Shown here piece by piece: positions 1-3,000 of a DNA stretch of 64,000 bases (positions are counted from its first letter, which is position 1; each line of letters opens with the position of its first letter). Location: positions 46,252,001 to 46,316,000 of the forward strand of contig NW_025963780.1 of NCBI RefSeq assembly GCF_023055435.1, read 5' to 3'. The stretch is from Haliotis rufescens (lineage: Eukaryota). The position numbers are program-made.

Positions 1-3000
1 TACACACCTATCTCCGGGTTATCCTCAACCCCTGTACTCACCTTTCTCCGGGTTATCCTCATCACCTGTACACACCTATCTCCGTGTAATCCTCTACGTT
101 AAACCTGTACTTGCCTGTCTCCAGGTAATGCTCAACGTTACACCTGTACTCACCTGTCTCCAGTTTATCCTCAACGTTACACCTTTACTCACCTGTCTTC
201 GGGTTATCCTCAACGTTACCCCTGTACTCACCTTTCTCCGGATAATCCCCAATGTTACACCTGTACTCACCTGTCTCCGGGTAATCCTCAACGTTACACC
301 TGTATTCACCTTTCTCCAGGTTATGCTCAACCCCTGTATTCACCTGTCTCCGGGTTATCCTGAACCCCTGTACTCACCTGTCTCCGGATTATCCTCATCG
401 TTACCCATGTATTCACCTTTCTGCGGGTTATTCTCAACCCCTGTTCTCACCTTTCTCCGGGTTATCCTCATCCCCTGTACTCACCTTTCTCCGGATTATC
501 ATCAACGTTACCCCTGTATTCACCTTTCTCCGGGTTATCCTCAACCTCTCTACTCACCTTTCTCCTGGTTATCCTCATCCCCTGTACTCACCTTTCTCCG
601 GGTTATCCTCATCCCCTGTACTCACCTTTCTCCGGGTTATCCTCAACGTTACACCTGTATTCACCTTTCTCCGGGTTATCCTCAACCCCTGTATTCACCT
701 TTCTCCGGGTTATCTTCAACTCCTGTGCTCACCTGTCTCCTGGTTATCCTCAACCCCTGTGCTCACCTTTCTCCGGATTATCATCAACGTTACCCCTGTA
801 TTCACCTTTCTCCGGGTCATCTTCAACTCCTGTGCTCACCTGTCTCCTGGTTATCCTCAACCCCTGTGCTCACCTTTCTCCGGGTTATCCTCAACCCCTG
901 TACTCACCTTTCTCCGGGTTATCCTCAACCCCTGTACTCACCTTTCTCCGGGTTATCTTCAACTCCTGTGCTCACCTGTCTCCTGGTTATCCTCAACCCC
1001 TGTGCTCACCTTTCTCCGGGTTATCCTCAACGTTACACCTGTACTCACCTGTCTCCGGGTTATCCTCAACGTTACACCTGTACTCACCTGTCTCCGGGTT
1101 ATCCTCAACGTTACACCTGTACTCACCTGTCTCCGGGTTATCCTCAACGTTACACCTGTACTCACCTGTCTCCGGGTTATCCTCAACGGCTGCATCATCA
1201 CCTGCCACAGGACGCTCTCAGACAAAGTGGGCGTTGTCAGAGAACCGTATAAGTAGTAAAAGTCACGTGATGAGGGAAGTAATTGGTCTGGGTTAAAGGT
1301 CACGTTTGAGCCACCTGAAATGAATTCAGTAACTTTCTGAGTGATTCACTTTTATGAATTAATAATATTACCCCGTCATTCATGCTACGTGCATTAAGTT
1401 AAAATGTTATTATGCCAGACGCCTTCATGTTTTCGTGCAGACGAGTCAATATTCATCACGTGACGTTCAATATTGATGATGTGACGAGTCAATATTTGAG
1501 ATCAATGTCAGTCACATGATTTGGAGTCTACATTGAAAAGTATTGTTTCGTCACGTGGTACGGATCAACCAATGGAATTGCAGGATTCAAAATATCAAAT
1601 GTAATTTCCTAATATTGGATATTTACCATCCCCCAAAACAGTCGTGGGATAACTTTTATTCTACCATGACTGTGAAGAACGCTTAAGTCAGATTGACCAA
1701 TGTAAGAGTAAAAGCAATTTTTAGTGATAATTGTTGCATTAAAGTCCCCCATTTCACACCATACAGTGACTCCTTGTAAACCCTCACTGTGTCAGGAAGT
1801 ATACAGTGATGGCAGATAAATTCAAGCTGAAGAGATCAACTAATACCTAAATAAACACTGACTTAACTTACTTTTGGATTAAATTGTTTCTAACAACTAG
1901 TAATTAGATCTCAATTAATAAATTTTGTAAAAAACATTTTGATAATATCACAAATCCCACTGTTCTTTTCTATGTTGTTGGGGATTGTTGACGAAAACAA
2001 ACACAACATATGCCGTACACGAAGTGTGGATCGCGACTCACCGCAACTGCCAAACCCAGACCTCCAGTGTGGACAAGCATTCCGAGCTGCCATTCTGCTC
2101 ATCATCCGGCTCGCCATGGCTCCTGTACACAGTTCTTCCGTACACACATCACCTGCAACAGACATGTGGCTCAAGAACAGTGATCCTCATAACATAGTTC
2201 ATCTATTATATCTCTATATATACGGATCCCCACTATGCATCTCGTCTCCACACATCTCCCGGTTAATATACAGCCCATCTGTACGGATCCTCACTACACC
2301 GCGCATCTATATGGATCCTCACTTCACCGCTCTTTTATATGGATCCTCACTACACCGCTCATCTATATGGATCCTCACTACAACGCTCATATGTATGGAT
2401 CCTCACTACACCGCTCATCTATATGGACCCTCACTACACCGCTCATCTATATGGATTGCCACTTCATAGCTCATCTATATGGATCCTCACTACACCGCTC
2501 ATCTATATGGATCCTCACTACACTGCTCATCTATATGGACCCTCAGTACACCGCTCATCTATATGGATCCTCACTACACTGCTCATCTATATGGATCGCC
2601 ACTTCATAGCTCATCTATATGGATCCTCACTACACTGCTCATCTATATGGATCCTCACTACACCGCTCTTCTATATGGACCCTCACTACACTGCTCATCT
2701 ATATGGATCCTCACTACACCGCTCATCTATATGGACCCTCACTACACCGCTCATATGTATGGATCCTCACTACACCGCTCATCTATATGGATCGCCACTT
2801 CATAGCTCATCTATATGGATCCTCACTACACCGGTCATCTATATGGATCCTCACTACACAGCTCATCTATATGGATCCTCACTACACCGCTCATCTATAT
2901 GGATCGCCACTTCATAGCTCATCTATATGGATCCTCACTACACCGCTCATGTATATGGATCCTCACTACACCGCTCATCTATATGGATCCTCACTACACC

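What the first reader, a model, noticed from the sequence alone, without database searches (positions are those of the whole stretch)
1..1187. Tandem array built from a live splice donor: ~33 consecutive 5' splice sites
Seen: the repeat unit is the last ~22 nt of CA exon 7 plus the first ~12-17 nt of the intron, so the minus strand has (C/A)AG|GTGA(G/A) every 34-39 bp. The proximal units are 39 bp and stop-free, so each of the next four donors (the first three identical to the real one) would add VSTGVTLRITRR(Q/K) in frame; distal 34-bp units would shift frame. Inference: either the spliceosome picks the first of several identical donors, or the enzyme has a copy-number-tunable basic insertion.
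Basis: partly seen in the sequence, partly recalled or inferred. Interest (0 to 1): 0.7.

Follow-up and report, generated by a model that had tools for sequence, protein, structure and literature searches.

The report
Minisatellite that repeats a splice donor
A tandem repeat has grown out of the end of a carbonic anhydrase exon, so the intron starts with about 32 extra copies of the splice signal; this kind of repeat is already known from lancelets and several human genes, and in most of those cases it does not change splicing.

Summary
Window 1-1187 is a tandem array of 34- and 39-nt units (TRF: 32.9 copies). Its first unit is the last 23 nt of an alpha-carbonic anhydrase exon (minus strand, 1314-1166) plus the first 16 nt of the intron. 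This gives 33 in-register donor positions: 32 GT and 1 GC, and 16 match MAG|GTRAGT exactly. The three sites after the real donor are identical to it. Only the donors at 1127, 1088, 1049 and 1010 stay in frame and stop-free, each adding 13 residues. Later ones shift the frame or follow a TGA at 961-959.

This is a known kind of structure. Minisatellites whose first unit spans an exon-intron boundary are called "mirages" in amphioxus (Adh3, globins, TnC, PGBD5). They are also described in human F7, 6-16, CBS, LMNB2 and PDGF. In most studied cases only the most upstream donor is used; in 6-16 and CBS the next two are used as well.

I found no sign that the donors are under selection. The array looks like a by-product of a region that is 73.5% minisatellite. 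Which donor is used cannot be tested here: there are no transcripts and the next exon lies off-window. My call is a new member of a known kind, of modest interest.

The parts
1..1188 (-). Tandem array of 34- and 39-nt units. There are 33 in-register donor positions. It is cut off by the window start, so this is a minimum length.
   Evidence: TRF; unit breakdown
1166..1314 (-). Alpha-carbonic anhydrase exon 'E', 149 nt, entered in phase 1 and left in phase 0. It encodes ...GSLTTP...QPLRITRRQ. A second possible acceptor at 1337/1336 would give a 171-nt phase-0 exon.
   Evidence: Pfam PF00194, 42.7 bits, E 6.6e-11, profile positions 165-216 of 254. PDB best hit is carbonic anhydrase 7, E 7.4e-10, 25 of 45 residues identical. 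Flanked by ag and gt.
1166..1188 (-). The 23 exon-terminal bases, encoding (P)LRITRRQ, that are repeated in every unit.
   Evidence: This stretch aligns to ISISERQ of carbonic anhydrase 7.
1160..1168 (-). Presumed authentic donor CAG|GTGAGT; last exon base is 1166.
   Evidence: Carbonic anhydrase homology ends here.
1043..1129 (-). Three pseudo-donors identical to the authentic one (last 'exon' bases 1127, 1088, 1049). Each adds 13 codons in frame.
1004..1012 (-). Fourth and last in-frame, stop-free pseudo-donor, AAG|GTGAGC (last base 1010).
959..961 (-). First in-frame stop (TGA) when the exon frame is read on into the array.
2042..2152 (-). Candidate exon 'D', 111 nt, phase 1 at both ends, flanked by ag and gt. 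It has no homology support.
26044..26124 (-). Exon 'C', 81 nt, phase 0 at both ends, encoding MHLVH...AVFLS. Inferred from the motif, the splice signals and phase continuity with exon B.
   Evidence: No hit when searched alone.
27013..27182 (-). Exon 'B', 170 nt, carrying the H-x-H and G-T-E-H motifs.
   Evidence: Pfam profile positions 66-110, E 2.7e-4, below the curated cutoff. Carbonic anhydrase 1 residues 78-121, E 0.004.
35249..35413 (-). Exon 'A', 165 nt, encoding ...NQSPV....
   Evidence: Pfam profile positions 2-62, E 0.019, weak. Splice signals and phase match exon B. No PDB support.

Best explanation
This is a boundary-spanning minisatellite, a 'mirage'.

Origin (inferred): a 39-nt piece covering the last 23 nt of a carbonic anhydrase exon and the first 16 nt of its intron was duplicated in tandem, by replication slippage or unequal exchange, and then amplified. 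A 34-nt variant with a 5-nt deletion arose and spread as multi-unit blocks. The most recent copies sit next to the exon.

Shown: every unit carries the exon's own donor together with its upstream purine-rich context, so the intron begins with at least 32 look-alike donors.

Splicing (inferred from the published human and amphioxus cases): the spliceosome uses the first, most upstream donor at 1166 for all or nearly all transcripts. The copies stay silent but remain competent.

Consequence (inferred): if the first donor were lost, the next copy would take over and add 13 residues in frame rather than shift the frame.

The array is most likely a neutral by-product of a genomic region where minisatellites fill the introns, not an adaptation.
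For: - The array and its unit structure are confirmed.
- The exon is a genuine carbonic anhydrase exon, and homology covers the repeated 23 nt.
- Reading on into the array adds only about 1 bit against PDB (41.7 to 42.8) and 3.4 bits against Pfam. Of the 60 alignments listed, 47 end within 3 residues of the junction and none goes more than 13 residues past it. So the last roughly 35 residues of the domain are not encoded in the array.
- Only 1 of 10 splice-junction probes of this gene is reiterated nearby: 32 copies against 1 for each of the others.
- 73.5% of the window lies in tandem arrays.
- The donor is not conserved better than the rest of the unit. Positions -3, +5 and +6 are the most variable ungapped columns among the 28 units aligned.
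- Published precedent: in F7, 50 constructs showed that only the most upstream functional donor is used; LMNB2 and PDGF use only the authentic site (PMC1557585, abstract and passages). The amphioxus Adh3, globin, TnC and PGBD5 mirages do not disturb splicing (PMC3087553 and PMC3902484, passages).
Against: - There are no transcript data, and the downstream exon is off-window, so which donor is used is untested.
- In 2 of the 5 human genes listed in PMC1557585 (6-16 and CBS), the two nearest copies are also used.
- In the F7 experiments, pseudo-sites with a perfect consensus did compete with a weaker first site. The copies here are near-perfect, although the first site is equally strong.
- Predicted RNA accessibility does not favour the first donor: 0.013 against 0.028-0.106 for the next four.
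- The published rule comes from mammalian cells and amphioxus, and the source organism of this window is unknown.
- The gene cannot be shown to be intact. Exon C ends in phase 0 while candidate exon D starts in phase 1.
Confidence: 0.7

Rival explanations
1. Several donors are used. Besides 1166, the nearest copies (1127, 1088, perhaps 1049 and 1010) splice to the next exon and give carbonic anhydrase isoforms with one to four 13-residue basic inserts. Allele length then sets which isoforms are possible.
For: The four nearest units are 39 nt, in frame and stop-free, and three of the donors are identical to the real one in a fully identical context. 6-16 and CBS do use two pseudo-sites (PMC1557585 passages). 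Predicted accessibility does not disfavour the copies.
Against: Most studied cases use only the first site. The donors show no extra conservation. A unit length divisible by three is a one-in-three chance, and 2 of the 3 frames of the 39-mer are open anyway (and inspection). The insert would fall inside a conserved domain just before its last roughly 35 residues.
Confidence: 0.2
2. The gene is dead or decaying, so the donors do not matter.
For: Exon C (phase 0 end) cannot join candidate exon D (phase 1 start). Exons A, C and D have weak or no homology support on their own. The last exon was not seen.
Against: Every exon found is open and flanked by ag and gt. Phases agree for A to B to C and for D to E. 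The H-x-H, G-T-E-H, MHLVH and SLTTP motifs are intact. A small missing exon, or the phase-0 acceptor at 1336, would resolve the phase gap.
Confidence: 0.1
3. Assembly artefact: the array, or the run of identical units next to the exon, was wrongly expanded or collapsed.
For: The four identical 39-nt units are the sort of sequence that assemblers miscount. The window begins inside the array.
Against: The units are diverged, with a block substructure typical of real minisatellites. Eleven other large arrays lie in the same window.
Confidence: 0.07
4. The reverse direction: a pre-existing satellite supplied the exon's end and its donor.
For: Satellites are everywhere in this window.
Against: The 23 repeated exon bases encode LRITRRQ, which aligns to the conserved ISISERQ of carbonic anhydrase 7 and lies inside the Pfam match. 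A 24-mer probe of the junction matched only within 3 kb of the exon; the rest of the window was not probed with it. The exact donor consensus has just 2 matches outside the array.
Confidence: 0.03

Closest known systems
Amphioxus 'mirages': minisatellite-like tandem duplications of exon-intron boundaries (Adh3, globins BflGb6 and BflGb9, TnC, PGBD5)
   Same: A tandem array whose units hold exon-terminal bases plus the splice signal. The Adh3 unit sizes (10-72 bp) bracket the 34 and 39 nt seen here. Units show concerted evolution. They sit in a minisatellite-rich genome (PMC3087553 and PMC3902484 passages).
   Different: At least 32 extra copies here, against 3-6 units in the globin example. 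The unit next to the exon is identical to its neighbours here, whereas in the globins the boundary units were excluded from homogenisation. The source organism of this window is unknown. The founding paper (Canestro 2002) was not held.
Human F7 intron 7 37-bp VNTR
   Same: The first unit spans the exon-intron boundary. The authentic donor is followed by copies identical in sequence, and the unit length is nearly the same (PMC1557585).
   Different: F7 repeats only 4 exon bases and has 5-9 units with a weak donor. Its 37-nt unit shifts the frame. Here 23 exon bases are repeated, there are at least 33 sites, the donors are near-consensus, and the nearest units are in frame.
Human 6-16 (IFI6) and CBS boundary minisatellites
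   Same: Many reiterated donors (25 pseudo-sites in 6-16), and they are a precedent for use of the nearest copies (PMC1557585 introduction).
   Different: Use of the copies is shown for those genes but is untested here. From recall, the 6-16 unit is 12 nt.
Human LMNB2 and PDGF boundary minisatellites
   Same: 10-18 reiterated junctions, with only the authentic donor used (PMC1557585 introduction).
   Different: Their units are much longer (100 and 81 bp).

Membership tests
Boundary-spanning minisatellite ('mirage' type) | Head-to-tail array of minisatellite-sized units | tested here: met
   TRF period 34, 32.9 copies. Spacing is 34 nt 18 times and 39 nt 14 times.
Boundary-spanning minisatellite ('mirage' type) | The first unit spans an exon-intron boundary, so exon bases and the splice signal recur in the intron | tested here: met
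   23 exon nt plus 16 intron nt are reiterated. A 24-mer across the junction has 32 copies with 5 or fewer mismatches.
Boundary-spanning minisatellite ('mirage' type) | The exon is a real coding exon, with homology running up to the boundary and not beyond | tested here: met
Boundary-spanning minisatellite ('mirage' type) | Normal splicing from the authentic site | not testable with these tools
   No transcript data, and the next exon is off-window.
Boundary-spanning minisatellite ('mirage' type) | Length polymorphism or instability between alleles | not testable with these tools
   Only one haplotype was available.
Boundary-spanning minisatellite ('mirage' type) | Cephalochordate host (applies to the name 'mirage' only) | not tested
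   No eukaryotic genome collection was available, so the organism stays open.
Alpha-carbonic anhydrase (Pfam PF00194) | Match above the curated cutoff | tested here: met
   Exon E alone scores 42.7 bits against a cutoff of 27. Exons A and B fall below the cutoff when tested alone.
Alpha-carbonic anhydrase (Pfam PF00194) | Zinc-ligand histidines and the active-site threonine motif (feature list recalled) | tested here: met
   H-x-H aligns to carbonic anhydrase 1. MHLVH is in exon C. SLTTP is in exon E.
Alpha-carbonic anhydrase (Pfam PF00194) | A complete, uninterrupted domain | tested here: inconclusive
Multi-donor minisatellite of the 6-16 / CBS kind | Nearest pseudo-donors are used and give in-frame isoforms | not testable with these tools
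   The in-frame property is met for 4 units, but use could not be tested.
Recursive splice site array | A pyrimidine tract plus AG placed directly against GT (definition recalled) | tested here: not met
   The bases upstream of each AG|GT are purine-rich, for example ...CCCGGAGACAG.

The most novel reading that the evidence does not exclude
The four identical, in-frame, stop-free units next to the exon serve as alternative donors, so the enzyme is made with zero to four copies of a 13-residue basic module. Array length differs between individuals and sets that range. This would be a splice-donor VNTR acting as a dial on an enzyme, and possibly the first step towards a repetitive domain inside a carbonic anhydrase.
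Probability: 0.08. Interest if true: 0.6.

Novelty: new member of a known kind. Interest (0 to 1): 0.3.

Why it matters
The class is already known, so the value is as an example. This array has at least 33 reiterated donors, 16 of them exact consensus, and the first four are identical in a 39-nt in-frame context. That makes it a more extreme natural test of how a spliceosome chooses among identical 5' splice sites than the F7 case (5-9 weak sites). Unlike in F7, using the next copy here would add residues rather than shift the frame. If transcripts show only the first site in use, the 'most upstream wins' rule extends to strong sites and possibly to another lineage. If several are used, it becomes a 6-16-like case in an enzyme.

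Tried and rejected
- Plus-strand coding. The array is open in all three + frames (274, 395 and 301 aa), but the 416-aa frame matches no Pfam family above its cutoff (best 15.8 bits). A 34-nt unit rotates through all frames, so the openness comes from base composition.
- Coding intronic arrays. Several other arrays are also open in all three frames of one strand, which I read the same way.
- RNA structure hiding the copies. Predicted accessibility does not favour the first donor.
- Selection on the donors. No extra conservation was found. This test is weak because units evolve in concert, and the four most distal units plus the truncated one were left out of that alignment.
- Other junctions. 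9 of 10 junction probes are unique.
- Rfam at gathering thresholds and ARAGORN found nothing in the window.
- Exons A and C gave no carbonic anhydrase hit against PDB when searched alone. Candidate exon D gave no Pfam hit in any of three frames.
- A recalled likeness of exon B and of a second reading frame across the candidate exon D region to mollusc shell-matrix carbonic anhydrases could not be tested, and two literature searches on that theme added nothing. I do not use it.
- A carbonic anhydrase example in print. A search for 'carbonic anhydrase' + 'minisatellite' + 'splice donor' found 1 unrelated paper, seen in the listing only.
The bacterial, phage, plasmid and E. coli collections were not used because they cannot hold this locus.

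Full report
**What is there.** Window 1-1187 is a tandem array. TRF gives period 34, 32.9 copies and 82% matches, plus a 107-nt higher-order period of 11 copies. Read on the minus strand, each unit ends in ...GGAGA(C/A)AG and the next begins GTGA.... An in-register count finds 33 donor positions including the real one:

| Site | Count |
|---|---|
| CAG\|GTGAGT | 8 |
| AAG\|GTGAGT | 8 |
| AAG\|GTGAAT | 6 |
| AAG\|GTGAGC | 3 |
| CAG\|GTGAGC | 3 |
| TAG\|GTGTGT | 2 |
| AAG\|GTGAGA | 1 |
| CAG\|GTGAAT | 1 |
| CAG\|GCAAGT | 1 |

Spacing is 34 nt 18 times and 39 nt 14 times. The exact consensus MAG|GTRAGT occurs 18 times in the whole window, against 2.73 +/- 1.66 in 100 shuffles (none reaches 18). 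Sixteen of the 18 lie in this array, all on the minus strand. The array touches the window start, so its true length is unknown.

**The exon.** The minus-strand frame from 1345 to 1166 matches Pfam Carb_anhydrase at 42.7 bits (cutoff 27), profile positions 165-216 of 254. It also matches solved carbonic anhydrases, best carbonic anhydrase 7 at E 7.4e-10 with 25 of 45 aligned residues identical. With the acceptor ...tttcag|GT, the exon is 1314-1166: 149 nt, entered in phase 1 and left in phase 0 after ...QPLRITRRQ.

My first query was cut at 1166, so I repeated the search with the read-through frame 1345-962. The best PDB score rose only from 41.7 to 42.8 bits. Of the 60 alignments listed (224 distinct sequences at E up to 0.001), 47 end within three residues of the junction, and none goes further than 13 residues into the array. 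Pfam gained 3.4 bits. The last roughly 35 residues of the domain are therefore not in the array. The exon ends at a donor, and the final exon lies below coordinate 1.

The 23 exon bases copied into every unit encode (P)LRITRRQ. This aligns with the conserved ISISERQ of carbonic anhydrase 7, so the repeat came from the exon and not the other way round.

| Exon | Coordinates (minus strand) | Evidence |
|---|---|---|
| A | 35413-35249 | Pfam positions 2-62, E 0.019 |
| B | 27182-27013 | H-x-H and G-T-E-H motifs; Pfam positions 66-110, E 2.7e-4; carbonic anhydrase 1 residues 78-121, E 0.004 |
| C | 26124-26044 | MHLVH...AVFLS; no hit when searched alone |
| D (candidate) | 2152-2042 | No homology support |

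All four are open and flanked by ag and gt. Phases agree for A to B to C and for D to E. Exon C ends in phase 0 while D starts in phase 1. Either a small exon is missing, or D is not an exon and the phase-0 acceptor at 1337/1336 is used. I do not take the window for human: 73.5% of it lies in tandem arrays, and the exon is only 56% identical to the closest solved human chain.

**What each donor would do.** The donors at 1127, 1088 and 1049 are identical to the one at 1166, and so is their context from -23 to beyond +39. Donors at 1127, 1088, 1049 and 1010 keep the frame with no stop, each adding VSTGVTLRITRR(Q/K). The donor at 976 shifts the frame by +1. From 942 onwards a TGA at 961-959 comes first. 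Modelled pairing to the U1 5' end is -13.6 kcal/mol for CAG|GTGAGT and -6.9 to -12.3 kcal/mol for the main variants (the U1 motif is recalled).

**Is anything selected?** I aligned the 28 units between 1165 and 154; the four distal units and the truncated one were left out. GTGA and the AG are invariant, but so are many other columns. The most variable ungapped columns are -3, +5 and +6, which are donor positions. Two-unit blocks recur (1009-942, 873-806, 766-699), and 39-nt units lie at both ends with 34-nt units in the middle. This is ordinary minisatellite turnover.

A 39-nt unit is in frame with probability one in three, and two of its three frames are open. Predicted RNA accessibility of the 9-mer is 0.013 for the real donor and 0.028-0.106 for the next four, so structure does not explain a preference for the first. 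Of 10 junction probes for this gene, only this donor is reiterated: 32 copies against 1 for each other probe. Introns here are packed with unrelated arrays.

- 6-16: 25 pseudo-sites, with the two nearest used.
- CBS: two pseudo-sites used.
- LMNB2 and PDGF: only the authentic site used.
- F7: a 37-bp unit repeated 5-9 times. Fifty constructs showed that only the most upstream functional donor is chosen, and pseudo-sites compete only when they match the consensus perfectly.

PMC3087553 (passages) describes the same structures in amphioxus as 'mirages'. [quoted passage not shown] PMC3902484 (passage) adds TnC and PGBD5. The founding paper, Canestro 2002, is not held. The supplementary alignments of PMC3087553 were not opened because supplements are closed. 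They might show how closely those units resemble this one.

A search for 'carbonic anhydrase' + 'minisatellite' + 'splice donor' returned one unrelated paper. I know of no carbonic anhydrase example, within the limits of that library.

**Most likely mechanism.**
- Shown: the array is built from the exon-intron junction, and every unit carries the donor with its native upstream context.
- Inferred: it arose by slippage or unequal exchange and was then amplified. The first donor is used for all or nearly all transcripts, as in F7, LMNB2, PDGF and the amphioxus mirages. The copies are silent but competent, and because the nearest units are 39 nt, loss of the first donor would add 13 residues rather than shift the frame.

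Rivals are multi-donor isoforms as in 6-16 and CBS (0.2), a decaying gene (0.1), an assembly miscount (0.07), and a satellite that donated the exon end (0.03).

**What stayed unchecked.** No eukaryotic genome, transcript or read collection was available. As a result, orthologous loci, allele lengths, the source organism, the downstream exon and actual splice junctions are all open.

**Verdict.** This is a new and unusually large member of a known kind. Interest is 0.3.

Noticed in passing
window 1-64000: 73.5% of the window lies in tandem arrays. The largest are a 21-bp unit x 737 copies (47795-63380), a 54-bp unit x 165 (9115-18002) and a 22-bp unit x 251 at 96% identity (20270-25792). Most sit in the carbonic anhydrase gene's introns.
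   Followed up: partly
window 26904-26998 and 26681-26920: A 13-bp x 7.3 array starts about 15 nt after exon B's donor but does not include the junction. Next to it is a perfect 120-bp x 2 duplication that contains the end of that array.
   Followed up: partly
window 26044 / 2152 / 1336: There is a phase mismatch between exon C (ends in phase 0) and candidate exon D (starts in phase 1). An alternative phase-0 acceptor at 1337/1336 would let C join E in frame without D.
   Followed up: partly
window 44154-45029 (-): An open 292-aa Tc1/mariner-type transposase frame (DDE_3 E 1.2e-16; HTH_Tnp_Tc3_2 E 1.3e-8). Its 5' end abuts a 22-bp x 6.5 array at 44983-45126.
   Followed up: partly
window 37805-38602 (+): A 266-aa open frame with a weak, below-cutoff DDE_Tnp_4 (Harbinger-like) match, E 9.9e-4.
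   Followed up: no
window 8457-8567 (-) and 31561-31782 (-): Two minus-strand frames share a very similar peptide (...ESEFLLG.AKSKQGNLA...), which suggests a dispersed repeat. Neither gave a Pfam hit.
   Followed up: partly
window 1-1187 (+) and other arrays: Several arrays are stop-free in all three frames of one strand, for example 274, 395 and 301 aa on the + strand here and 639, 804 and 406 aa on the minus strand of 9115-18002. I read this as a base-composition effect, not coding.
   Followed up: partly
window ~35745-35760 (-): A run of about 14 G lies upstream of exon A.
   Followed up: no
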